64,000 nt of DNA from sequence record OK272482.1; one strand, 5' to 3'. The position numbers were made by a program, and so were the translations under genes. Positions 8,078 through 30,057 of this stretch are shown here, piece after piece (the stretch's first letter is position 1; each line of letters starts with the position of its first letter). The notes under the pieces were generated by a model that saw only the letters and a program-made list of their open reading frames with translations, had not been told where the DNA came from and did not search any database. The stretch is from Escherichia phage JLBYU08.

Positions 8078-8132
8078 GATGATTTGCCTCTCTTTATTTT
8101 CATAATTGGGGGCCTTTTCGGCCCCGCCAGGT

Positions 8133-8417: not shown

Positions 8418-8622
8418 GGTTTTAACTCCTATCTATCCGGTTAATGATTGGAGGCCTCACCGCCCCCGACACCCTTTATTATCCATATTGTAGGACTTGA
8501 TGCAAGTACTTCTTTAAAAATTTTTTAAGCGCCTTGGGGGCCGCTGTAACGCCAAAATAATAAAGGCTATGCAACCGCATAGCCTTTATGTGATTATATC
8601 GCTGCAGGCCCTGCCAGGGACC

Positions 8623-8990: not shown

Positions 8991-9290
8991 TTAGTTTGAG
9001 AAAACATCGTTCACAATAGCGATCACAATGCCGCCCACCTTGTCACGGTCAACAATGCACAAATCACCATAGATCATGTGGTAGTCTGGATGATCTTTGA
9101 CGGAATAGTCGATAAGTGTTTTCTTGTCATCCAGCTTACTAACTTCCATTCTCATAACGATATGAGAATCATCAAAGGCATTATTCCGAAAAGTCATAAC
9201 CTGACCGCCAGGGCACCCGGTGATTTCCACCTCCACGCCGTCTACGATCTGACCATCAAAGAAATAAAGATTATTAGCCTGGATAAACAT
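8991..9290 (-). CDS. hypothetical protein, about 100 aa (start moved to ATG after AAAGGAG)
   Basis: Track ORF starts at GTG; AAAGGAG SD sits in front of the in-frame ATGs. Confidence 0.55.
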   Translation of the reverse strand: MFIQANNLYFFDGQIVDGVEVEITGCPGGQVMTFRNNAFDDSHIVMRMEVSKLDDKKTLIDYSVKDHPDYHMIYGDLCIVDRDKVGGIVIAIVNDVFSN

Positions 9291-9332: not shown

Positions 9333-9378
9333 AATTTACTTTATTGATGGCCCTGGAGTCAAGGCCATCTAAAAATAA
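9333..9378 (-). promoter_or_regulatory. repeated promoter-hairpin element copy 1 (TTGACT in hairpin loop, then TAAATT)
   Basis: One of three near-identical 44-bp elements; 7-bp stem GATGGCC/GGCCATC; lies upstream of gene 8991..9290. Confidence 0.5.
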
Positions 9379-9381
9379 ATT

Positions 9382-9582
9382 TTACAGGCCTACAATCTCT
9401 TTAATTCGTTTTACTGCTGCCTCAGCGCCTTGAGGGTAAAAATTATGGTAACCAATCACGCGAGTGATACTAATCGCCGTTTGATGATCTTCATAATCAC
9501 CTTTAAAGATTTCTTGACCGTCAATCAGCACGGCAATTTTTTCTTCTTTTTTGAAGTTAATAACGCGGATATTGTTGCTCAT
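9382..9582 (-). CDS. hypothetical protein, 66 aa
   Basis: ORF with AAAGGAGAA SD. Confidence 0.6.
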   Translation of the reverse strand: MSNNIRVINFKKEEKIAVLIDGQEIFKGDYEDHQTAISITRVIGYHNFYPQGAEAAVKRIKEIVGL

Positions 9583-9680
9583 TTTGTTTCTCCTTTTGGA
9601 ACTTTGTCTATGCGGTGGGGAGTGTCTCCCCGTTGATTGTTATTATCCATATTCTGGATCGGATTGCAACACTCAGGGAG

Positions 9681-9720
9681 AAAAAAATTTGAAAAGTTAG
9701 GCCCCCATGATCGGGGGGCC
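9681..9720 (-). terminator. rho-independent terminator
   Basis: On minus strand: GGCCCCC-loop-GGGGGCC hairpin followed by T-rich run. Confidence 0.55.
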
Positions 9721-9723
9721 GTT

Positions 9724-9843
9724 CTTAGTTACTTACAGCGATAAAGTACATCCCTACGCCTAGCAATATTTCAAGGGCGATAATCTCAAGCCATACCATA
9801 ACGCGGCGCACCTTATCGGTGCATGGCTTATCCTTGGTTGTCA
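9724..9843 (-). CDS. small membrane protein, 39 aa
   Basis: Hydrophobic short ORF not in ORF track. Confidence 0.3.
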
Positions 9844-9953
9844 TCGTCTCCCCCTTTCCTTCTGGTAGTAGTGACGCGATCTACAATGGCCCCCAGGAGT
9901 CCTATCCCGACACACACCACAAGAAAAATTATCTCCGCTGTTGTTCGATCCAT
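9828..9953 (-). CDS. small membrane protein, 41 aa
   Basis: In-frame ATG with GAGGAA SD inside track ORF 9828..10010; hydrophobic core. Confidence 0.3.
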   Translation of the reverse strand: MDRTTAEIIFLVVCVGIGLLGAIVDRVTTTRRKGGDDDNQG

Positions 9954-10063
9954 TGTTATAAAATTCCTCAAGATCAGGCCTGAAAATAAAGCGTTCGTTA
10001 TTGAATCCATCCCGCCAGGCGGCTGGCTTCAAATCTTCACTAAAGGGATTAATTAACGTGGCA

Positions 10064-10435
10064 TTATTTAAACGGCTGGTCCACATATTTTCTATTCCTC
10101 TCAAATAGGCGATCCGCCTCAGTTAAACAAATCTCATGGGCGTGATCTCTGGTTTTAGCTTCATCGAAAACCTGTTGTGCAAGGCTGCAACGTAGGGAGA
10201 CTGGAAGATCACTATAATAGGCGTTGACAAACGTTTGAGCGTCGTACAGGTCTGAAAATACTTTACCCTTTCTATTATTCCCCTTGTCAACAATTGCAAG
10301 GATAACCAATACAATAGTTGCAACCACCCCCAGGAAAATAGATATAATAAACCATAAAAAGGCGGATCTTCCCATCTTGCCAGCGATCCAGGCGTTAAAC
10401 AAGGCAACCAATACAGCCAAAATAATAAATTCCAT
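10064..10435 (-). CDS. membrane protein, about 123 aa (start at MEFIILAV)
   Basis: AAAAGAGG SD before internal ATG; two hydrophobic helices at N-terminus. Confidence 0.55.
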   Translation of the reverse strand: MEFIILAVLVALFNAWIAGKMGRSAFLWFIISIFLGVVATIVLVILAIVDKGNNRKGKVFSDLYDAQTFVNAYYSDLPVSLRCSLAQQVFDEAKTRDHAHEICLTEADRLFERNRKYVDQPFK

Positions 10436-10499
10436 TCTATGTACCTCTTTTACAGTTCTGATTAACAATAAGGCGGCAAATATGCCGCCTGCTACCTGA

Positions 10500-10880
10500 T
10501 TAAAAATTATCGCCGTAAATCTTTCCGCTTTCTACCCATACCACCACGCGAGGCATACTATCCCACACGTCTTGTTTTAGATTGAGCGCGTGCAATTCTT
10601 CGGTGGTGCTCATACCGGGCACGGGCTGATTGTATACTGCAAAACGACCGCCTGCATAATCATAGGCCAGGGTTAAATCACACTGGATCATCTTTTTGAT
10701 CATGGTATTAAGCATGGCGTTAGCCGCATATTGATCACGTTTTAAAGGCAACTCTTTGATTAGTTTGCGATAGTTTTCGATATGGTCGCACACTGTTTCA
10801 CGAGGAAGATCTTTCATATCTTCACGGAATGTAACCAGGTTAAACATAACGGTGTCAATAGCCTTGGTAGTGTTTTTCAT
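10500..10880 (-). CDS. hypothetical protein, 126 aa
   Basis: ORF with AAGAGGA SD; own promoter. Confidence 0.6.
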   Translation of the reverse strand: MKNTTKAIDTVMFNLVTFREDMKDLPRETVCDHIENYRKLIKELPLKRDQYAANAMLNTMIKKMIQCDLTLAYDYAGGRFAVYNQPVPGMSTTEELHALNLKQDVWDSMPRVVVWVESGKIYGDNF

Positions 10881-10934
10881 GATGTTATCCTCTTTGTTTT
10901 GTGTTGGGGCAAACGTCTTGCCCCCTTGAGTTTT

Positions 10935-10962
10935 AATATAGCAGGTTTTTAGGTTATTGCAA
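10935..10962 (-). promoter_or_regulatory. sigma70-like promoter (TTGCAA-16-TATATT)
   Basis: Hexamers read on minus strand, 16-bp spacer, upstream of gene 10500..10880. Confidence 0.45.
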
Positions 10963-10970
10963 CACTTTAT

Positions 10971-11594
10971 TTATGAAAAAGTCATCTCACCATATTCATC
11001 GACATCAAACCGCCAATCATTGGCCTCGATAAGGCCGATCAGGTTTTCTGCGGTGAACTGTTCTAGATAGGCCTCCTCCAGGTCTACGTAAACCTTGCGG
11101 GATAGCTCCCGTACCGTCTCGGTGATCAGTTCTTCCAGGTCTTCCACTTTGTTTTCTTGTTTGGCGGTCAGATCTAGCCAAGTGGTATCAATGTACCCGC
11201 TTACAGTGTTTTCATGGCTGTAATGGCTGTACTTGTCGCGTTCAACACTGGCTGATAACTCGCCATCGTGCATTGTGCCGAACAAGTGACGAATTGATCG
11301 GAACTTGGTCAGGGCCTTTACTTTACGCAAAAATTTTTCTAAATCCACGTTTTCAGCACTGATTGACGCGCCGTCACCCTGGCACCAAAAGCCTGACCAA
11401 TGTACTTCGGTATCTTCAAGGCCATACTCTGGAAAAACATATTCTTTATAGTATTCAATTACACTTTCTGCAAAAAAGTTATCCCCGCTGTGTTCTTCTC
11501 TTTCGCGGACCATTTCAACGGCTTTTTCTTTTTGTTCGTCGGTCAGCACGTCGAAAGATAAATTGTAACCTGCGGTAATGTTAACGGTGGTCAT
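10971..11594 (-). CDS. acidic hypothetical protein, 207 aa
   Basis: ORF with TAGGAGAA SD; own promoter. Confidence 0.65.
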   Translation of the reverse strand: MTTVNITAGYNLSFDVLTDEQKEKAVEMVREREEHSGDNFFAESVIEYYKEYVFPEYGLEDTEVHWSGFWCQGDGASISAENVDLEKFLRKVKALTKFRSIRHLFGTMHDGELSASVERDKYSHYSHENTVSGYIDTTWLDLTAKQENKVEDLEELITETVRELSRKVYVDLEEAYLEQFTAENLIGLIEANDWRFDVDEYGEMTFS

Positions 11595-11651
11595 GATATT
11601 TTCTCCTATTTTCTTTGTTAGTGGCGGGAAGTTTTCCCGCCTGTGTGTTTA

Positions 11652-11679
11652 AGTATACTTATTGAGGCTTACTTGTCAA
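11652..11679 (-). promoter_or_regulatory. sigma70-like promoter (TTGACA-16-TATACT)
   Basis: Consensus -35, near-consensus -10, 16-bp spacer; upstream of 10971..11594. Confidence 0.55.
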
Positions 11680-11929
11680 CACTATTTTTTAAATTATTGT
11701 GGCGCAAAATGTTTAAAATCTCCTCAACGTCATCAACACGGCGGCAATTTTTAAACGCTACCAATTGCCCCATGATTTTAATCACTGGGCGGCCTTGCCA
11801 GTGCCCTTGAATAAAGCGCGCCTTAACCTTATCGGTGGAACTATCCCGCCACCAAACGGCTTTATTATTGCAGTAGTAAAAATTATTTAGGACAACATCG
11901 ACTTTATCAAAATTTTTCAATTTACGCAT
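11669..11929 (-). CDS. hypothetical protein, 86 aa
   Basis: ORF with AAGGGGGG SD. Confidence 0.55.
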   Translation of the reverse strand: MRKLKNFDKVDVVLNNFYYCNNKAVWWRDSSTDKVKARFIQGHWQGRPVIKIMGQLVAFKNCRRVDDVEEILNILRHNNLKNSVDK

Positions 11930-11966
11930 GGCGTTTACCCCCCTTACTTCTCGCTTTGATGTGATT

Positions 11967-11994
11967 AGTATAGCTAACCTGTTGACGATGTCAA
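11967..11994 (-). promoter_or_regulatory. sigma70-like promoter (TTGACA-16-TATACT)
   Basis: Same architecture as the promoter at 11652; upstream of 11669..11929. Confidence 0.55.
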
Positions 11995-12152
11995 TGATAT
12001 TTTTAACGCCATGAAACGGCCCTGGGCGATGTTTTCAGGTTAAAGGGGGCGATTGCATAGGTGGGGGCCTTTTTGGCGCTTACAGGGCCAACCAGGGGCG
12101 CTATTCGTAGGATAGAAATAAAAAGCCCCGCACAATGGCGGGGCGTTGGTTG

Positions 12153-12350
12153 TTATTTGTCTTTATGGCGGTATCGTTCTGCCTGTCGTTCACGTTCCAA
12201 AAGTAGGCCGGGCAATTTACGATCATAATGATTACGCCAGATCTTCCCAAACCTTTTTGGCTTATTCAGTTTATTGTTACGCTGGCGGCGTTCTGGCAGC
12301 TCTTCGGAATCATGAGGGCGCTTTACAATTTTCTCGAAATTAATTTTCAT
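12153..12350 (-). CDS. highly basic small protein, about 65 aa
   Basis: Arg/Lys-rich ORF; AGGGGGG SD before internal ATG. Confidence 0.5.
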   Translation of the reverse strand: MKINFEKIVKRPHDSEELPERRQRNNKLNKPKRFGKIWRNHYDRKLPGLLLERERQAERYRHKDK

Positions 12351-12693
12351 ATATTCCCCCCTTGCTAACTTCAATATTGGCCTGAATAGCCCGGATACGG
12401 CGCTTTATAACTTCCTGATCTGTGTGGTCGTATCCCCAAAAGTCTACAATTTTTGCGCCCCCCGCCTCCAGGCGGTATAGTGTTTCCTGCATTTTGTAAG
12501 CCGGGATCGGTCGCGGTGTTACTTGGTCACCTTCTTTATTTTTATACTTTATAATATAATCTTCGTTATCGTTGAATGCCCAAAATGGATATTCTGCAAG
12601 GGCGGTACTTCCTCTTTCCTTTTTATCCTGGATCTTATTTACAATTAAAGCCGTAGCAATAGCGCCAATAATAAAACTTGCCCCGCTGATCAT
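12340..12693 (-). CDS. membrane-anchored protein, 117 aa
   Basis: N-terminal hydrophobic helix; AAAGGAGAAA SD. Confidence 0.6.
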   Translation of the reverse strand: MISGASFIIGAIATALIVNKIQDKKERGSTALAEYPFWAFNDNEDYIIKYKNKEGDQVTPRPIPAYKMQETLYRLEAGGAKIVDFWGYDHTDQEVIKRRIRAIQANIEVSKGGIYEN

Positions 12694-12767
12694 GTACTTT
12701 CTCCTTTCATGGTGTTAATAAATTATCTTTATAGATGGCCCTGCAACCAGGACCACCGAAAAAATAA

Positions 12768-13013
12768 CTATTTCACAATGCCTACAAAACAGATCCCGCC
12801 TTCACCTATATAAGCAATATCGGTCACTTTATAACTTGTCAAGATCTGCTTATTTAGTTCATTAATAAAATCGGTCATTGCGTTGGTGTAGTTGTCTTCC
12901 GTGTCTAAGGCATAATCCCAGGTGTACACCTTTTTACGTCCGAAGCCTTTTACCATGATACGGGCGCTTTTGGTGTTGGTAGGGGCATAATATTTGGTGA
13001 TTAGTGCTGCCAT
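12768..13013 (-). CDS. hypothetical protein, 81 aa
   Basis: ORF with TAGGAG SD; promoter-hairpin element upstream. Confidence 0.6.
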   Translation of the reverse strand: MAALITKYYAPTNTKSARIMVKGFGRKKVYTWDYALDTEDNYTNAMTDFINELNKQILTSYKVTDIAYIGEGGICFVGIVK

Positions 13014-13054
13014 GGTTTTAACTCCTATGCATTAGTTCAGTGTTAACAGTATAA

Positions 13055-13100
13055 AGTTTACTTTATTGATGGCCCTGGTGTCAAGGCCATCTAAAAATAA
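13055..13100 (-). promoter_or_regulatory. repeated promoter-hairpin element copy 2 (TTGACA in loop, then TAAACT)
   Basis: Near-identical to the copies at 9333 and 13676. Confidence 0.5.
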
Positions 13101-13102
13101 GC

Positions 13103-13444
13103 TTACTCGTTTTCTTCCAGCTCCGCAAGCTCTTCTTTTGCTTCTTCTAACTCTGTCTGTAATTCCTGGTATTCTTCATCGTCCTCAATATCCAGGCTGT
13201 CGATGTAGTCGCTAAATCCGCAGCGGTAAGCGATAGGATCTAGCTCCTTGAGGATACGCGACGGAAGAAAAGAAATGTTTCCGATCATAATTTCGCCGTA
13301 GATCTCGTCTAACCATTCATCATAGTTTTCGTCGTACTTGTCCTCGTCGATTTCAAAGTTATCGATCTTATTCTCAAGGTCTGCGATCTGTTTTTTCAGT
13401 TCAGCGATCTGCATAGCTTTTTCTGAGGCGGTCATAGTAGTCAT
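13103..13444 (-). CDS. acidic coiled-coil protein, 113 aa
   Basis: ORF with AAAGGAGAAAAA SD; consensus promoter upstream. Confidence 0.6.
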   Translation of the reverse strand: MTTMTASEKAMQIAELKKQIADLENKIDNFEIDEDKYDENYDEWLDEIYGEIMIGNISFLPSRILKELDPIAYRCGFSDYIDSLDIEDDEEYQELQTELEEAKEELAELEENE

Positions 13445-13495
13445 GGTGTTTTTCTCCTTTTGTGTGTTCTGGGAAGTTTTCCCGTTTATGTGCTT

Positions 13496-13523
13496 ATTAT
13501 ATCGATTTAAGTTAGCTTGTCAA
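13496..13523 (-). promoter_or_regulatory. sigma70 consensus promoter (TTGACA-16-TATAAT)
   Basis: Perfect -35 and -10 hexamers with 16-bp spacer on minus strand. Confidence 0.6.
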
Positions 13524-13643
13524 TTAAAAGTTTAAGAAAAATTTTGCGACACCGTTGGCGCTACCCATCAACATTTGCGCCAGGATGTACCCAATGATGC
13601 AAACGATGATGGTTACCTTTGTGTGCTGGCGTGTAGTGCTCAT
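13524..13643 (-). CDS. small membrane protein, 39 aa
   Basis: Short hydrophobic ORF with AAAGGAGG SD, not in ORF track. Confidence 0.4.
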   Translation of the reverse strand: MSTTRQHTKVTIIVCIIGYILAQMLMGSANGVAKFFLNF

Positions 13644-13675
13644 CTTTAAGCCTCCTTTTCCGCTCAACTGTGGTT

Positions 13676-13721
13676 AGTTTACTTTATTGATGGCCCTGGT
13701 GTCAAGGCCATCTAAAAATAA
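13676..13721 (-). promoter_or_regulatory. repeated promoter-hairpin element copy 3
   Basis: Near-identical 44-bp element upstream of small gene 13524..13643. Confidence 0.5.
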
Positions 13722-13723
13722 AC

Positions 13724-14119
13724 TCAATAAGTTTTTAGTACTTTCCCGTCCAATCTGTCAAGCTGGATCTCGATAGCTGCAGAAAACCTATTGTAAACCA
13801 CATCGCCCAGGGAGTCCAGCCAATCTATGACGTTATATACCTGCTCTTTATTCTTGCAAGTCCGGATCCGTTTCATTACGTAAGACGGATCAATATTAGC
13901 GCTCTCGTTGTTGTGGTCCTGCGCCTGGCCTGCTGCGCTAGTTATAGATTTTACAACCACCTGAAAGGGCTTTAAGGTGCCTTTTGCGTTCATCTCACGC
14001 GCTTTTGCGGCGCGGTTGTTATATGTTACACAACGGCGGCAAATGTTGACCAAATGCATATCAATAATTTTTTCATCGTTTGCCAGTTCGTTCATGATGC
14101 GGCGTACGTTCTTATTCAT
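13724..14119 (-). CDS. hypothetical protein, 131 aa
   Basis: ORF with AAAGGAAA SD. Confidence 0.6.
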   Translation of the reverse strand: MNKNVRRIMNELANDEKIIDMHLVNICRRCVTYNNRAAKAREMNAKGTLKPFQVVVKSITSAAGQAQDHNNESANIDPSYVMKRIRTCKNKEQVYNVIDWLDSLGDVVYNRFSAAIEIQLDRLDGKVLKTY

Positions 14120-15470: not shown

Positions 15471-15574
15471 AAATGAGAACTCCTCGCATTTAATAAATTT
15501 AATTAGCACGCTAATTACCCTCCGTAACAATTTACTATAAAATAGTATCCACTAAAATATTCCCATATAGAAAT

Positions 15575-15770
15575 TTTAAAAATCCATTTCTGAAAACGAA
15601 AAATCGATTTCGTCCCCAAAAATTTCAGGTTGAGAGCCGGAACGATTTCCAGAAAATCCGATTCAGAAAACGAAAAACAGATCGAGTACTGAGAAATTTA
15701 TCGAGAAAAATTTTCAGAAAATCCAAGCCCTGAAATGAAAAGTAGATCGAGTACCTGGAAAGCTGCACCG
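15575..15770. repeat. A-tract repeat cluster (TCAGAAAA, AAAATCC, AGATCGAGTAC motifs)
   Basis: Several copies of short motifs in a 900-bp non-coding gap. Confidence 0.5.
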
Positions 15771-17893: not shown

Positions 17894-18352
17894 TCAACAC
17901 TTTTTGTACTCTACTACAACCACATCAATATCTGTGGTTGCAAGATTAATTACATCTTCTACATGTTCCCACTTTAGACCGCCAATACCGCATCCAATTT
18001 TAGGAATGTAGAACGGCAATGACACACCTTTGAATACCTCGTTGACTCGCTCAAAACCTTTCATTATTGAGAAGTATTCAGCATTGGGCCCTGGGTAGAA
18101 CTGGGTATACAGGTTGATTCCATATACGACCCTGTTCTTGGCAAAATGCTCCCAACAAGAAAACATACCCAGCTTGTCCAGATTACCATAGGCAGTCTCT
18201 TTGTCGGCTGCCAGTGCTTGAGGGAACTCACGGGCAATATCTTTCGCTATGCCTGCACCCATTGTATGAAAGCAGTTACAACCGTGGATCAGGTGACCAG
18301 CACCGCTCTTAAAAAGGGAGATTAAATCTCCCGCTACAGTATCAATAATCAC
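17894..18352 (-). CDS. macro-domain protein (ADP-ribose binding/hydrolase-like), 152 aa
   Basis: GDL...HGCNC...MGAGIAKDI and IGCGIGG motifs match macro-domain signatures; GTG start coupled to upstream gene. Confidence 0.7.
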   Translation of the reverse strand: MIIDTVAGDLISLFKSGAGHLIHGCNCFHTMGAGIAKDIAREFPQALAADKETAYGNLDKLGMFSCWEHFAKNRVVYGINLYTQFYPGPNAEYFSIMKGFERVNEVFKGVSLPFYIPKIGCGIGGLKWEHVEDVINLATTDIDVVVVEYKKC

Positions 18353-19565: not shown

Positions 19566-19593
19566 AAAAATGCCCCACCCTTTCGGGCAGGGC
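19566..19593 (-). terminator. rho-independent terminator (copy 1 of an identical hairpin)
   Basis: Minus strand: GCCCTGCCC-GAAA-GGGTGGGGC followed by ATTTTT; identical hairpin at 30031-30057. Confidence 0.7.
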
Positions 19594-24014: not shown

Positions 24015-24368
24015 TTAGTGACAATCACCCCAATTACGACCACACAAGTATTCACCTGTGATCTGGAACGGGACTCCCATCATTTTAGAAGCTTGCCAGA
24101 AGCAATGTACCACCATTTCGCCCACAGGACTCCAGATAAGTTCAAGCTTTCCGTCATCGTTCAAGATAGGATCGTACACCGTGTTTCCGTCTCTGTCAAC
24201 CACTTCGTTTCCGTTTTCATCCTTGCGTGCCTTTTTGTACTTATGACCGTCGAACACATGAAGTTTGGCCTCCTGCTCTGCCTTAAATGCTTCCAATTCT
24301 TCAATTGTGTCGAAGGTGTACACAGTCTTATACTTCGGTGTGTCAGGTACTTGAAGCTGATATTCATC
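24015..24368 (-). CDS. DNA polymerase (family A) exon 2: motif C (H|DEYQLQV) and C-terminal end ...NWGDCH
   Basis: Supplies the HDE motif and terminal His absent from the upstream 809-aa ORF; follows the omega-G of the intron. Confidence 0.75.
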   Translation of the reverse strand, partial: DEYQLQVPDTPKYKTVYTFDTIEELEAFKAEQEAKLHVFDGHKYKKARKDENGNEVVDRDGNTVYDPILNDDGKLELIWSPVGEMVVHCFWQASKMMGVPFQITGEYLCGRNWGDCH

Positions 24369-24697
24369 CATCTGTTCAGGTAGGTCGTTAAGCTACCCCG
24401 CACCATTACGTGCATAGCCATACAGTTTCCTGTATGGATCGGACTACCTCACTGCCTTGGTAACAAGGCACCTCCCATTTCGACCGCACTTGCTGGCCTA
24501 CTCTACTCGCTTCTTCACACCAACCTATGTTGGAGCTATGCTTTCGATAGTCTCTGAACGTTCATCCTCTCGGATGCTTCGCTGCGGATTAGCATATTGA
24601 GCTTTTACCATACTCAGGTGTAAAAGTCAACTTAGCTTTCCCGTCAATTAAAGAGGTTATTCGACATAGATCACTCTATGAAGCCACAATGTTATTT
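24369..24697 (-). mobile_element. group I self-splicing intron, 329 nt, no internal ORF
   Basis: AAUUGACGGGAAAG, GUUCAGAGACUA and GGUAGUCCGA elements; exon 1 ends in U, intron ends in G; in-frame TAA just inside intron. Confidence 0.8.
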
Positions 24698-27121
24698 ATG
24701 GTAATAGATAATACGACGGACACCTTCATCGTACCACCCACGCTTCACCATTTGGTGGTGCATGAGTATCCCAACTAAGTCACACAACGATGCACCACCA
24801 TTTTGTTGGTATGCATTAAGTAAAGAGTGTTTAGATCGGGTCCAGATGGCATGACCATCAAAAGAGTATATAAACTTCTTACCAGTTGCTTCCCAGAATT
24901 TCTCCAGATCCTCTTTACGCCCCTTAAGACCAGGGTTGGCATCCCAAAGCGCATCGATTACCCTTTGCCCCAACTCTGGAGAGATATCCAGCATGTCTGC
25001 AACTTTATCTTTTTGTGCCCCGTACATAACCCCATACGTGATAGGTTTACCGTCGTTACGGGACACCTCTCTGCCTGCTACTTTTGTATATGCCTCAGCA
25101 TTGTTTTGGTGTGCGTCCCCGTTACTTACAACATCATAATACAAGCCGTTGTCGAACTCAAAGGCACCCCAAGCCCCGATAAGCTGCTCTAAGTTGGACC
25201 CGTCAATACCGATCTCAAAGTATCCTGGAGGAACACCCCACAGACTACGCATCTCTTTACCCATAACCACTTTAGGAGATGGTTTAGGCATGTTTGCACA
25301 AATACTGTGTTTCTGTCGGGAAGTGTTTGTTAGCCCAGAACTTTTAGCAGGAAGCTTATGGTCAATCTTCAAACGTGGGTGATTAAGAAGACCAGTATCA
25401 ACCTTATCCTCCTTGATTGGATCAAGGACCGATCTGCGGTTTCGCAATGATAACCACAAGACGATATCTTTAGCCATCTCTCCGTTCAATTTTTCAAGAT
25501 TTGGGCATAGGTGTCCAAACGTATCTTTCAGCTGCGGAGAAGTAATAAGTGCTCTGGCTTTTCTACGTATTTTCCCGAATACTTCCTTTTTAATCCTTTC
25601 GGAGTTAGGAAAGCTTCGGAACTTGTGCACGGTTGTCTGAAACTTAGCATCAGTTTTGTTCCAGAAGTTGATAATCAGGTCACAATACTCTGACTCTAAA
25701 AGCTCGTCCATGTATGCATATACTCGTGCATCAACATCTGCATCAGGTAGAGCTTTCTTCTTGCTGTCTTTAGTTACATCCTTAGTTCTCCACATTGTCG
25801 GAAGCCAACCAGCACTGATCAGGTATCGCTTAATGTCGTCCTGATTGCTGATTTTCATAGGTATCTTGCAGTCCGGCATTCGCTTCTGCTGTAGATCACT
25901 TATTGCCTGATCCATCAGCTCTTTAGGTAAAGGTTGTGGTGTGGAAGTGCCCTTAATATAGCCTCTCAAGAAATCAGCCATCTTATCAGGGTCTTTGCAG
26001 CCCATCTCTTCACACCATTTTATCCCCATCTTGCTGACATCTCCTGTGGAGGTAAATGCTCGCTTAGGCGGGGCTTTGAACTCCAAAGCACTCATGTCCA
26101 CAGGATAGCCAAGCTTATCTTTTAACCATTTCCAACCATTGTTGGAGATTGTCCCATCTTGGTTAAACGGCTTTTCAGGGAACTTGGGCCGCTGAGACAT
26201 TGACAGCTCTTTTAAAGGAAGTTGAGGTTCAACACGATCAGCGATTTCTTTCATCCACGCATCGCAACGGTCACGTAAAGCAATAGCTCCATCTATGTCG
26301 AAGTATACACCCTGACGGGCCTGCAGCTCCATCAGGAAGTGCTGCAGCATGCCTCGACGTAGTGCGTTCTTCCAGGTGATCTTCTTGAACCCTTTCGGCT
26401 TCTCTTTGGCTGGATCGTACATAAAGTTCTGCATGTCAGATTTGCCGTAGAATACACCTTTTGATTCCGCTACCAGCTCTTTCCAGAGCAGCTCCTGGAT
26501 GATAACGTCCTCGAATACACGATCCACATACTTCCACAACGGAAGATCGCGCCAGTCATCAATTTGAACTTTCTGGTTACCAAGGGCGTAGCCCCATGCC
26601 ATAAGGCCGTGAGGACCAACAGGCTGCATTTTCTTAGTAACCGGGTTGAATACAGAGTCCGGACAACCTTTTGGTAAAGGGCGATCAGGCCACAAGATTC
26701 GGCTCATCGCCAACGTATCAAACAGGTTAACCTGGTGGTCGTTGATAGTCCCCATACATTTAGGATCACGGAACATATCAAAATGAATACCGGATAATCT
26801 CTCCATCAGCATAAAGTCATAACTGTAGCAGTTATGGCAGTTCAAAGCTGTTGGTGACCAGTCGGAATTGCCTGTAAGCCAACCCTCCAACTCTGAAAAA
26901 TCTGCTATGCGAACTTCAAAATCTTTATAAAAAGTTTTCTTTGCCAGAATAAAGTTCTTAGCCTTCTCTATATCCTCTTCGGAGTAGTGTGTGCGGTCAT
27001 TTAGAGGAAGGAACAGCATAAAACGGTTCTTATTCAGCTCTTTAAACAGGCCGCAGTGATAATAAAGATCTGGGTCTTCCAGCAAACCGGATGACTCAAA
27101 ATCGAACGACCACATGCTCAT
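24698..27121 (-). CDS. DNA polymerase (family A) exon 1: 3'-5' exonuclease and polymerase domains through motif B
   Basis: N-terminal WSFDFESSG exo motif; IGIDGSNLEQL (motif A-like); KPITYGVMYGAQ (motif B); AAGGAGAA SD. Confidence 0.9.
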
Positions 27122-30030: not shown

Positions 30031-30057
30031 AAAAAGCCCCACCCTTTCGGGCAGGGC
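30031..30057 (-). terminator. rho-independent terminator (copy 2 of identical hairpin)
   Basis: Minus strand: GCCCTGCCC-GAAA-GGGTGGGGC followed by TTTTT. Confidence 0.7.

What the first reader, a model, noticed from the sequence alone, without database searches (positions are those of the whole stretch)
9333..13721. Three near-identical 44-bp promoter-hairpin elements upstream of early genes
The element TTTATTTTTAGATGGCC-TTGAC(A/T)-CCAGGGCCATC-AATAAAG-TAAA(C/T)T (minus-strand reading) occurs at 9333-9378, 13055-13100 and 13676-13721. A perfect or near-perfect -35 hexamer sits in the loop of a 7-bp GC stem, 18 bp from a -10-like hexamer. It may be a promoter whose activity is modulated by hairpin extrusion, a nuclease processing site, or a binding site for a phage regulator.
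Basis: seen in the sequence. Interest (0 to 1): 0.5.

Follow-up and report, generated by a model that had tools for sequence, protein, structure and literature searches.

The report
Repeated promoter-bearing RNA hairpin cassette
An rV5-like coliphage carries four copies of a 49-base element that folds in the messenger RNA into a conserved two-storey hairpin just after early genes; three copies also look like host promoters, and the copies are points where related phages have gained or lost genes. It is a variant of a known kind of phage regulatory cassette, not a new principle.

Summary
The three repeats are real and at the stated coordinates. The description is incomplete in three ways.

- **Fourth copy.** A diverged copy (69% identical) lies at 12721-12769.
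- **Structure.** The whole 49 nt folds on the sense (window minus) strand into a 10-bp AU-rich lower stem, a 2x3 internal loop, a 10-bp upper stem and a tetraloop.
- **Promoter placement.** TTG of the '-35' is in the upper stem and ACA in the loop. The '-10' is the 3' arm of the lower stem.

The fourth copy has lost the -35 but keeps the same fold through G.U and compensatory changes. It folds this way only as sense-strand RNA, so selection acts on an RNA structure.

Every copy starts at the stop codon of an upstream ORFan. No copy is followed by a U-tract.

The geometry matches the T7 early intergenic hairpins, which are known RNase III sites. I infer an intercistronic processing or 3'-stabilising signal.

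Three copies also carry TTGAC(N)-18-TAAA(C/T)T. A hairpin of this composition reaches that match by chance about 1% of the time, so they are probably also sigma70 restart promoters.

Related phages have deletions whose junctions lie inside chimeric copies, which shows recombination between the copies.

The closest concept is the PeSL of T4-like phages. My verdict is a new variant of a known kind, of moderate interest.

The parts
13676..13724 (-). Copy 3: two-tier hairpin with embedded TTGACA (13705-13700) -18- TAAACT (13681-13676). It begins at the A of the TGA stop codon of the 131-aa ORF 13724..14119. The next ATG is at 13643.
   Evidence: -25.1 kcal/mol, z -7.4; 77.3 bits
13055..13103 (-). 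Copy 2: two-tier hairpin with TTGACA (13084-13079) -18- TAAACT (13060-13055). It overlaps the TAA stop codon of the 113-aa ORF 13103..13444. The next ATG is at 13013.
   Evidence: -21.1 kcal/mol, z -4.9; 78.3 bits
12721..12769 (-). Copy 4 (not in the finding): same two-tier fold, 69% identical. The '-35' position reads CTGGTT, so there is no credible sigma70 promoter. It overlaps the TAG stop codon of the 81-aa ORF 12768..13013. The next ATG is at 12693.
   Evidence: -22.4 kcal/mol sense strand vs -8.1 antisense; 68.4 bits
9333..9381 (-). Copy 1: two-tier hairpin with TTGACT (9362-9357) -18- TAAATT (9338-9333). It follows the TAA stop codon of the 66-aa ORF 9382..9582. The next ATG is at 9290.
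   Evidence: -23.6 kcal/mol, z -5.8; 81.6 bits
13104..13675 (-). Gene cassette between copies 3 and 2: a small ORF (ATG at 13643), the consensus promoter TTGACA-16-TATAAT at 13523-13496, and the 113-aa ORF. Together with one copy of the element it is missing from phages ECP26 and ime and from IMG/VR contig L008, which retain a single chimeric copy.
12770..13054 (-). The 81-aa ORFan between copies 2 and 4. It is missing from phage 241Ecol014PP, where a chimera (copy-2 5' half joined to copy-4 3' half) remains.

Best explanation
The unit is a 49-nt cassette that works at three levels.

1. Shown: RNA structure. In transcripts read through from upstream early promoters, it folds into a conserved two-tier RNA hairpin that starts at the stop codon of the preceding ORFan. 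The fold has a 10-bp AU-rich lower stem, an asymmetric 2x3 internal loop, a 10-bp GC-rich upper stem and a tetraloop.

2. Inferred: RNase III-type processing. About two helical turns interrupted by an asymmetric internal loop, placed between early cistrons and lacking a U-tract, is the architecture of the T7 early RNase III signals. I therefore propose that host RNase III makes a single cut on the 3' side of the internal loop. The upstream message would keep a protective 3' hairpin and be uncoupled from the downstream message.

3. Inferred, for copies 1-3 only: promoter. The same DNA carries TTGAC(N)-18-TAAA(C/T)T behind a T-rich upstream stretch. Host sigma70 RNA polymerase would restart transcription about 7 nt past the hairpin, giving RNAs that lack the hairpin. 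Copy 4 is a hairpin-only version.

4. Shown: recombination. Because the copies are near-identical direct repeats, they recombine, deleting or exchanging the ORFan cassettes between them and homogenising each other.
For: Structure:
- All four copies give the same minimum-free-energy fold on the sense strand, at -21 to -25 kcal/mol with z of -4.9 to -7.4. The antisense strand folds worse, and for copy 4 hardly at all (-8.1).
- With DNA parameters copy 4 loses the lower stem.
- Across 24 distinct sequences from 10 Vequintavirus loci, 98.1% of pair positions are paired, against 35-57% when partners are slid.
- Four lower-stem pairs change on both sides, including the series A-U / G.U / G-C. Four upper-stem pairs change on one side through wobble only.

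Placement:
- Stop codons overlap the base of the lower stem in all four copies.
- No U-tract follows any copy, and none is listed by the terminator scan.

RNase III analogy:
- The T7 early intergenic regions fold into a 9-10-bp upper stem, a tetraloop, an asymmetric internal loop and a lower stem. In the gene 0.7 / gene 1 gap the internal loop is 2x3, as here.
- RNase III substrates typically span about two helical turns. Internal loops limit cleavage to one strand, leaving a protective 3' hairpin (PMC1540722 and PMC3867540).

Promoter:
- The match is 10/12, on the coding strand, in a promoter-dense early region.
- The chance of such a match is 0.5-1.3%.
- The sequence after the -10 of copy 3 (AACCACA) equals that of rV5 promoter P186, and the hexamer TAAACT equals the -10 of P194.
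- The canonical copies keep a U.G pair where copy 4 has C-G. That U is the first T of TTGACA.

Recombination:
- Junctions of the 621-bp deletion in ECP26, ime and L008, and of the deletion of the 81-aa gene in 241Ecol014PP, lie inside chimeric copies.
- In phiWec193, copies 2 and 3 share a derived U-to-C change. In rV5, copies 1 and 2 share the loop ACUU.
Against: - No transcript-end data exist for any rV5-like phage, so neither cleavage nor initiation has been observed.
- The 18-bp spacer and the GC-rich stretch directly upstream of the -35 differ from the other 30-odd promoters of this phage group. Those use 16-17 bp and an A-rich -45 to -38 region.
- The three promoter-like copies are paralogues, so the promoter match counts as one event.
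- The sixth -35 base varies A/T/C/G among phages.
- RNase III has no strict sequence consensus, so the assignment rests on geometry alone. I did not evaluate proximal-box or distal-box antideterminants.
- PeSL stem-loops were reported to lower downstream expression like terminators (PMC2839356). Attenuation of RNA polymerase rather than RNase III cleavage cannot be excluded.
Confidence: 0.5

Rival explanations
1. PeSL-type promoter plus attenuator. The hairpin acts on RNA polymerase, by termination or pausing of read-through from upstream promoters, not on RNase III. The embedded promoter restarts transcription, so each ORFan cassette is insulated.
For: - PeSL stem-loops, some of which overlap the -35 or -10, reduced lacZ expression like a strong terminator (PMC2839356).
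- The context is the same: an AT-rich upstream stretch, intergenic placement in an ORFan-rich early region, and indels bounded by the repeats.
Against: - The hairpin is followed by A-rich rather than U-rich sequence on both strands, and it is not picked up by the terminator scan, whereas neighbouring canonical terminators are.
- A simple terminator gives no reason to conserve the asymmetric internal loop and the AU-rich lower stem through compensatory changes.
Confidence: 0.2
2. One reading: a sigma70 promoter whose activity is tuned by extrusion of a DNA hairpin or cruciform around the -35.
For: - Copies 1-3 are 49-bp imperfect palindromes with AT-rich arms.
- Both strands fold with DNA parameters, at -12.3 and -10.7 kcal/mol.
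Against: - Copy 4 keeps the fold on one strand only and has no -35.
- G.U pairs make up 61 of 480 scored pair positions. They are A.C mismatches on the other strand, which a cruciform would also need to fold.
- Relatives in other phages keep the fold without any TTGACA.
Confidence: 0.07
3. Operator for a dimeric DNA-binding regulator of phage or host, which binds the inverted repeat GATGGCC-N10-GGCCATC over the -35 to shut off early transcription.
For: Copies 1-3 have perfect 7-bp half-sites that are invariant in all Vequintavirus genomes sampled.
Against: - In copy 4 only the 5' arm changed (A to G and C to U), and every change preserves RNA pairing rather than half-site symmetry.
- The half-site centres are 17 bp apart, which is not a whole number of DNA turns (inference).
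- The lower stem co-varies, which a -35 operator does not explain.
Confidence: 0.05
4. Binding site for a phage-encoded RNA-binding protein, such as a translational or stability regulator, or a plain exonuclease barrier without cleavage.
For: - Sense-strand RNA conservation.
- The internal loop and its neighbouring pairs (UUUUUA-G...C-AAUAAAG) recur in unrelated phages.
Against: - No candidate protein is identified. The flanking genes are ORFans with no Pfam match.
- The hairpin sequesters neither the Shine-Dalgarno sequence nor the start codon of the next gene.
Confidence: 0.12
5. Selfish miniature palindromic mobile element (REP- or MITE-like) with no function for the phage.
For: - It is a small palindromic repeat in intergenic DNA, associated with indels.
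- Sporadic look-alikes occur in unrelated phages, one next to an HNH endonuclease gene.
Against: - There are no target-site duplications at any copy.
- The copies sit at fixed positions in about 120 genomes, at about 3 per genome.
- There are none in 5,426 E. coli genomes or in the GTDB species genomes.
- Orientation and placement relative to stop codons are constant.
- Compensatory evolution indicates selection on the fold.
Confidence: 0.04

Closest known systems
PeSLs (promoter-early stem-loops) of T4-like phages RB49/phi1, PST/T4 and nt-1/KVP40 (Arbiol et al. 2010, PMC2839356; Comeau et al. 2014, PMC4122927)
   Same: - Both are repeated composite intergenic cassettes: an AT-rich stretch, sigma70-like -35 and -10 hexamers, and a stem-loop that may overlap the -35 or -10.
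- Both are concentrated among early ORFans.
- In both, recombination between copies deletes or exchanges the intervening genes and leaves a chimeric copy.
   Different: - The host lineage is different (Vequintavirinae, not T4-like), and there is no sequence similarity.
- There are only four copies per genome.
- The whole promoter is embedded in one 49-nt two-tier hairpin with an internal loop, not next to a short G(n)-loop-C(n) stem.
- The spacer is 18 bp and the -10 is TAAACT.
- One paralogue is a hairpin without a promoter.
- RNA-level covariation is documented here. Terminator activity and mini-circles were not tested.
RNase III processing signals of the T7 early polycistronic mRNA (R0.3, R0.5, R1, R1.1, R1.3; Dunn and Studier 1983, recalled from memory; five signals stated in PMC3867540)
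   Same: - Both are repeated near-identical hairpins in intergenic gaps right after stop codons of early genes of a coliphage.
- Both have a 9-10-bp GC-rich upper stem with a 4-5-nt loop, an asymmetric internal loop (2x3 in the 0.7/1 gap) and an AU-rich lower stem.
- Neither has a U-tract.
- In T7, promoters also lie in the same gaps.
   Different: - There is no sequence homology.
- Cleavage is not demonstrated here.
- In T7 the promoters lie beside the hairpin, not inside it.
Sigma70-type promoters catalogued for phage rV5 (Kropinski et al. 2013, PMC3606486, Table S4)
   Same: - The -35 is a perfect TTGACA.
- TAAACT is also the -10 of P194, and the AACCACA start region is also that of P186.
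- The strand and genome region are the same.
   Different: - These sites are absent from that catalogue, which allowed only N15-17 spacers.
- The spacer here is 18 bp.
- The stretch just upstream of the -35 is GC-rich stem, not A-rich.
Intrinsic (rho-independent) terminators
   Same: A GC-rich stem-loop placed directly after a stop codon.
   Different: There is no U-tract. U-rich sequence lies 5' and A-rich sequence 3' of the GC stem, on both strands.
Hairpin promoters of coliphage N4 virion RNA polymerase (recalled from memory)
   Same: Promoter information is associated with a DNA hairpin in early genes.
   Different: - N4 promoters are small hairpins (5-7-bp stem, 3-nt loop) read by a phage-encoded virion RNA polymerase.
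- Here the hexamers are sigma70-type, and the rV5 paper's account of transcription describes only host-type (sigma70) and T4-late-like promoter motifs. I did not search the proteins for a phage RNA polymerase.

Membership tests
PeSL (promoter-early stem-loop cassette) | Sigma70 consensus-like -35 and -10 with an AT-rich region upstream | tested here: met
   TTGACA-18-TAAACT scores 10/12 and TTTATTTTTA lies upstream. The match is weaker than the near-perfect consensus of PeSLs, and copy 4 fails.
PeSL (promoter-early stem-loop cassette) | A stable stem-loop within or next to the promoter | tested here: met
   The fold is -21 to -25 kcal/mol and overlaps both the -35 and the -10.
PeSL (promoter-early stem-loop cassette) | Repeated in intergenic regions of an ORFan-rich, variable early region | tested here: met
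   There are four copies within 4.4 kb, all between ORFans with no Pfam match.
PeSL (promoter-early stem-loop cassette) | Indels between close relatives bounded by the repeats, leaving a chimeric copy | tested here: met
   ECP26, ime and L008 lack the copy 3-copy 2 cassette. 241Ecol014PP lacks the gene between copies 2 and 4.
PeSL (promoter-early stem-loop cassette) | Measured promoter and terminator activity; mini-circle formation | not testable with these tools
   This needs reporter assays and inverse PCR.
PeSL (promoter-early stem-loop cassette) | Described in T4-like myoviruses; sequence related to known PeSLs | tested here: not met
   The window is a Vequintavirus. Blastn with the element finds only Vequintavirus records.
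E. coli RNase III single-cleavage processing signal (T7 type) | About two helical turns of double-stranded RNA, possibly as coaxially stacked helices | tested here: met
   The fold has 10 + 10 bp across a 2x3 internal loop. The criterion comes from PMC1540722.
E. coli RNase III single-cleavage processing signal (T7 type) | An asymmetric internal loop at the prospective cleavage site, about 10-11 bp below the apical loop | tested here: met
   The loop is UA/AAU, or UC/UAU in copy 4, 10 bp below the tetraloop. It is conserved in all copies and in the relatives from other phages.
E. coli RNase III single-cleavage processing signal (T7 type) | Absence of proximal-box and distal-box antideterminant base pairs | not tested
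   The box positions depend on the unknown cleavage site, so I did not evaluate them.
E. coli RNase III single-cleavage processing signal (T7 type) | rnc-dependent cleavage in vivo or in vitro | not testable with these tools
   No transcript-end data were found for rV5-like phages.
Sigma70 promoter | Hexamers at 16-18 bp spacing, on the coding strand, upstream of a gene | tested here: met
   (chance 0.5-1.3%). The 18-bp spacing is at the edge of the allowed range.
Sigma70 promoter | Primary transcription start downstream | not testable with these tools
   This needs dRNA-seq or 5' RACE.
Intrinsic terminator | A U-tract immediately 3' of a GC-rich hairpin | tested here: not met
   AAUAAAGUAAA follows the GC stem, and the sites are absent from the terminator scan.
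Any Rfam family | Score at or above the family's gathering threshold | tested here: not met
   The only gathering-level hit in the window is a group I intron elsewhere. Weak hits over the element score 15-25 bits against thresholds of 55-80.

The most novel reading that the evidence does not exclude
The Vequintavirus element may be one branch of an undescribed, horizontally spread family of phage intercistronic RNA motifs. The family would have a two-tier hairpin with a conserved core (UUUUUA-G[A/G]NGG ... CNUC-[A/U]AUAAAG), a 2x3 internal loop, and a freely variable apical stem of 7-13 bp.

Five further instances occur in four unrelated AT-rich uncultured phage contigs (L006/L016, L010, L022 and L044). 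Each lies right after a stop codon, some lie behind structural genes, and none has a TTGACA.

Such a core would be read by a common factor, either RNase III or an unknown phage protein. In rV5-like phages the motif would have been converted secondarily into a portable promoter-plus-processing cassette that drives ORFan shuffling outside the T4-like phages.
Probability: 0.2. Interest if true: 0.6.

Novelty: new variant of a known kind. Interest (0 to 1): 0.4.

Why it matters
- **Reach of cassette-mediated shuffling.** Shuffling of early ORFans through regulatory cassettes, so far described only for T4-like phages, would also operate in the rV5-like phages that are widely used for therapy and biocontrol.
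- **One sequence, two jobs.** The same 49 nt can encode a structured RNA signal for transcripts arriving from upstream and a promoter for transcripts leaving downstream. This gives a compact way to insulate single-gene modules.
- **Annotation.** These sites are missing from the published promoter and terminator lists of rV5 and from GenBank records.
- **Testability.** The hairpin-only paralogue and the natural chimeras amount to ready-made mutants for separating the two functions.

Tried and rejected
- **Known RNA family.** The Rfam gathering scan of the window and the E-value scan of the locus gave no credible family.
- **Intrinsic terminator.** There is no U-tract and the sites are not in the scan.
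- **More copies in the window.** A covariance model with filters off found only the four. The next best match scores 13.9 bits, E = 4.
- **Host origin or a REP-like element.** There is no match in 5,426 complete E. coli genomes and no exact core match in the GTDB species genomes.
- **Deep orthology through flanking genes.** The 99-aa downstream ORF exists only in Vequintavirus, so there are no distant orthologous gaps to compare.
- **Published transcript maps for Vequintavirus.** None were found. The rV5 paper lists neither a promoter nor a terminator at these sites.
- **More copies in the unrelated phage contigs.** A second covariance model found none in 310 kb of fetched loci.
- **Identity of those contigs.** They have no cultured relatives. 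The best-covering blast hit of the L044 element is the Vequintavirus chimera, but at E = 6 it is not significant.
- **Loose-pattern IMG/VR hits.** Most of the 29 + 10 hits to the loosened flank patterns are chance matches without any hairpin.
- **Search error.** My first IMG/VR pattern had the gap one base too long. That is why it missed the Vequintavirus contigs and found L006 by accident.
- **N4-type hairpin promoter.** I considered this from memory and rejected it, because the hexamers here are sigma70-type.

Full report
**1. What is in the sequence**

Read on the minus strand, the element occurs at the three stated places. A 37-nt core allowing up to 3 mismatches is found exactly three times, against none in 100 shuffles.

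The repeat finder adds a fourth, 69%-identical copy at 12721-12769 in the same orientation.

The window is an rV5-like coliphage of the genus Vequintavirus, 99.3% identical to phage EdH4 over this stretch. All four copies lie in intergenic gaps of a run of small minus-strand ORFs. The flanking ORFs have no Pfam match.

**2. Anatomy**

On the sense (window minus) strand every copy gives the same minimum-free-energy structure:

- lower stem of 10 bp (AGUUUAUUUU / AAAGUAAACU, with one U.G pair);
- internal loop UA / AAU;
- upper stem of 10 bp (GAUGGCCUUG / CAGGGCCAUC, with one U.G pair);
- tetraloop ACAC or ACUC.

The energies are -21.1 to -25.1 kcal/mol, with z-scores of -4.9 to -7.4.

TTG of the '-35' is therefore paired and ACA sits in the tetraloop. 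The '-10' TAAACT is the end of the 3' arm of the lower stem.

Copy 4 differs at 15 of 49 positions and reads CTGGTT where the others read TTGACA. It still folds into the same architecture at -22.4 kcal/mol (z -6.7). Its complement reaches only -8.1 kcal/mol. With DNA parameters it loses the lower stem.

**3. Comparative evidence for the fold**

The element occurs in 120 phage records, all Vequintavirus, at about three canonical copies per genome. Seventeen of these records are labelled 'Campylobacter phage'.

I collected 30 distinct versions from ten loci and scored 24 of them against the two-tier structure. Results:

| Measure | Result |
|---|---|
| Pair positions that are paired | 98.1% |
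| Same measure with partners slid by 1-3 columns | 35-57% |
| Shuffles (of 500) reaching the observed pairing or covariation score | 0 |
| Lower-stem pairs changed on both sides | 4 (U-A/C-G; A-U/U-A; the series A-U, G.U, G-C among orthologues of copy 4) |
| Upper-stem pairs changed on one side | 4, always through wobble (A-U to G.U, C-G to U.G, U.G to C-G, G-C to G.U) |
| G.U pair positions (A.C on the other strand) | 61 of 480 |

This is the signature of selection on a single-stranded structure of the sense strand, most simply the mRNA.

A covariance model built from these sequences finds only the four copies in the 64-kb window.

**4. Context**

In all four copies the stop codon of the upstream ORF overlaps the base of the lower stem. 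The next start codon lies 27-42 nt downstream, behind a Shine-Dalgarno sequence that is not sequestered.

What follows the GC stem is A-rich on both strands. None of the sites appears in the terminator scan, although canonical terminators nearby do, for example at 12144-12125, 10490-10471 and 9720-9700.

The same scan shows that the minus strand here is packed with consensus sigma70 promoters: 13523, 14940, 14661, 14195, 11994 and 11679, roughly one every gene or two.

The rV5 genome paper lists 33 promoters and 20 terminators.

**5. Is it a promoter?**

For:
- The match is 10/12 on the right strand at the right distance from genes.
- Hairpins of the same composition and pairing reach 10/12 in only 0.5-1.3% of randomisations.
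- TAAACT is the -10 of rV5 P194, and the AACCACA that follows copy 3 is the start region of P186.
- The canonical copies tolerate a U.G pair exactly where the first T of TTGACA lies, whereas the promoter-less copy 4 has C-G.

Against:
- The spacer is 18 bp.
- The 7 bp upstream of the -35 are GC-rich stem, unlike the A-rich stretch in the other promoters.
- The last -35 base varies A/T/C/G among phages.
- The three copies are paralogues, so they count as one observation.

I rate promoter function at about 0.6. Transcripts started there would begin after the hairpin, so the RNA structure and the promoter act on different RNAs.

**6. Recombination (shown)**

Phages ECP26 and ime, and IMG/VR contig L008, have a single copy. 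Its upstream flank is that of copy 3 and its downstream flank that of copy 2. The 621 bp in between, holding two ORFs and a consensus promoter, are gone.

Phage 241Ecol014PP lacks the 81-aa gene. It carries a chimera made of the 5' part of copy 2 and the 3' part of copy 4, which incidentally creates TTGACA-17-GATAAT.

Shared derived changes point to gene conversion between copies within a genome:
- in phiWec193, copies 2 and 3 share a U-to-C change in the internal loop;
- in rV5, copies 1 and 2 share the loop ACUU.

**7. Outside the genus**

There is no Rfam family, no copy in E. coli genomes and no exact core match in the GTDB species genomes.

Pattern scans of IMG/VR that fixed only the lower-stem and internal-loop flanks returned mostly chance hits without structure. 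They also returned five clean two-tier hairpins in four unrelated AT-rich contigs:
- L006 and L016 (the same 190-kb contig);
- L010;
- L022;
- L044.

Their apical stems are 7-13 bp long and entirely different in sequence. The internal loop is the same 2x3. Each starts at or within about 6 nt of a stop codon.

None has a TTGACA, and none has a hexamer pair at promoter spacing. Some lie behind structural-looking genes, and one lies in front of an HNH endonuclease gene.

The flanks were imposed by the search, so only the hairpin geometry is independent evidence. Homology with the Vequintavirus element is possible but unproven (E = 6).

These relatives nevertheless support the view that the hairpin is the primary element and the promoter a local addition.

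**8. How it most likely works**

E. coli RNase III substrates typically span about two helical turns, which may be built from stacked helices. Internal loops restrict cleavage to one strand, leaving a 3' hairpin that protects the upstream RNA (PMC1540722 and PMC3867540).

The T7 early precursor carries five such signals (PMC3867540). Folding the T7 early intergenic gaps gives a 9-10-bp GC-rich upper stem, a tetraloop, an asymmetric internal loop and an AU-rich lower stem. In the 0.7/1 gap the internal loop is 2x3. These hairpins also lie right after stop codons and form a repeated family. That these T7 hairpins are the R sites is from memory of Dunn and Studier 1983.

The element here has the same design. 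I therefore propose host RNase III processing between early cistrons, combined in copies 1-3 with a restart promoter. The RNA structure and the recombination are shown. Cleavage and initiation are inferred.

The main rival is PeSL-style attenuation of RNA polymerase. It fits the experimental precedent of PMC2839356, but it does not explain the missing U-tract or the conserved internal loop.

**9. Comparison and novelty**

Functionally the element behaves like a PeSL. Both are composite promoter/stem-loop repeats among early ORFans that mediate modular shuffling.

It is not a sequence relative of any PeSL, and it sits in a different phage subfamily. It also differs in three respects:
- the promoter is nested in a two-tier hairpin that resembles the T7 RNase III sites;
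- a hairpin-only paralogue exists;
- RNA-level covariation is documented.

Interestingly, several rV5 early ORFs are annotated as similar to proteins of RB49, the phage in which PeSLs were discovered.

It is a new variant of a known kind, of moderate interest (0.4).

Noticed in passing
window 24419-24707 (-): A group I intron (Rfam RF00028, 72.5 bits, full-length model) sits between an 809-aa ORF (24692..27121) that looks like a family-A DNA polymerase and a 118-aa ORF (24015..24371) that may be its second exon.
   Followed up: partly
window 11614-11651 and 13459-13496 (-): A second repeat family: a consensus promoter (TTGACA-16-TATACT or TATAAT, at 11679-11652 and 13523-13496) is followed immediately by the hairpin GGCGGGAA-NNN-TTCCCGCC, which would sit at the 5' end of the transcript. 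It may be a 5' stabiliser.
   Followed up: no
window 8098-8131, 8440-8473, 12053-12086 (-): A third repeat family: a GC hairpin (GGGGCC-GAAA-GGCCCC on the minus strand) ends a few bases before the ATG of a small ORF, with no obvious Shine-Dalgarno sequence between them. This recalls the split Shine-Dalgarno hairpins of T4 (from memory).
   Followed up: no
window 15566-15761: Three degenerate copies, about 57 nt each, of an A-rich repeat (GAAAATCC...GAAAACGAAAA), spaced 65-74 bp apart in an ORF-poor stretch. They may be iteron-like, and may correspond to the 'non-coding' box of the rV5 map.
   Followed up: partly
window 19567-19593 and 30031-30057: Two nearly identical strong terminators (GCCCTGCCCGAAAGGGTGGGGC) lie 10.5 kb apart. 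They correspond to t213 and t232 of rV5 and are another pair of direct repeats that could recombine.
   Followed up: no
window 17894..18352 (-): An early-region ORF with a Macro domain (PF01661, 25.9 bits), the Tk.4 homologue shared with RB49. The E. coli macrodomain protein YmdB is a known inhibitor of RNase III (abstract of PMC4329070). That would be relevant if the hairpins are RNase III sites, but the link is pure speculation.
   Followed up: partly
phage collection records MG0656xx (e.g. L004, L005): Seventeen GenBank records named 'Campylobacter phage' (UNVERIFIED) are 92-100% identical to E. coli Vequintaviruses over this region. They are probably mislabelled or contaminant genomes.
   Followed up: no
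L006 896-951 and ORF 952-1500: In an uncultured 190-kb AT-rich phage contig, a look-alike two-tier hairpin lies directly in front of a free-standing HNH (NUMOD4-like) homing endonuclease gene. A second copy lies elsewhere in the same contig (L016 368-433).
   Followed up: partly
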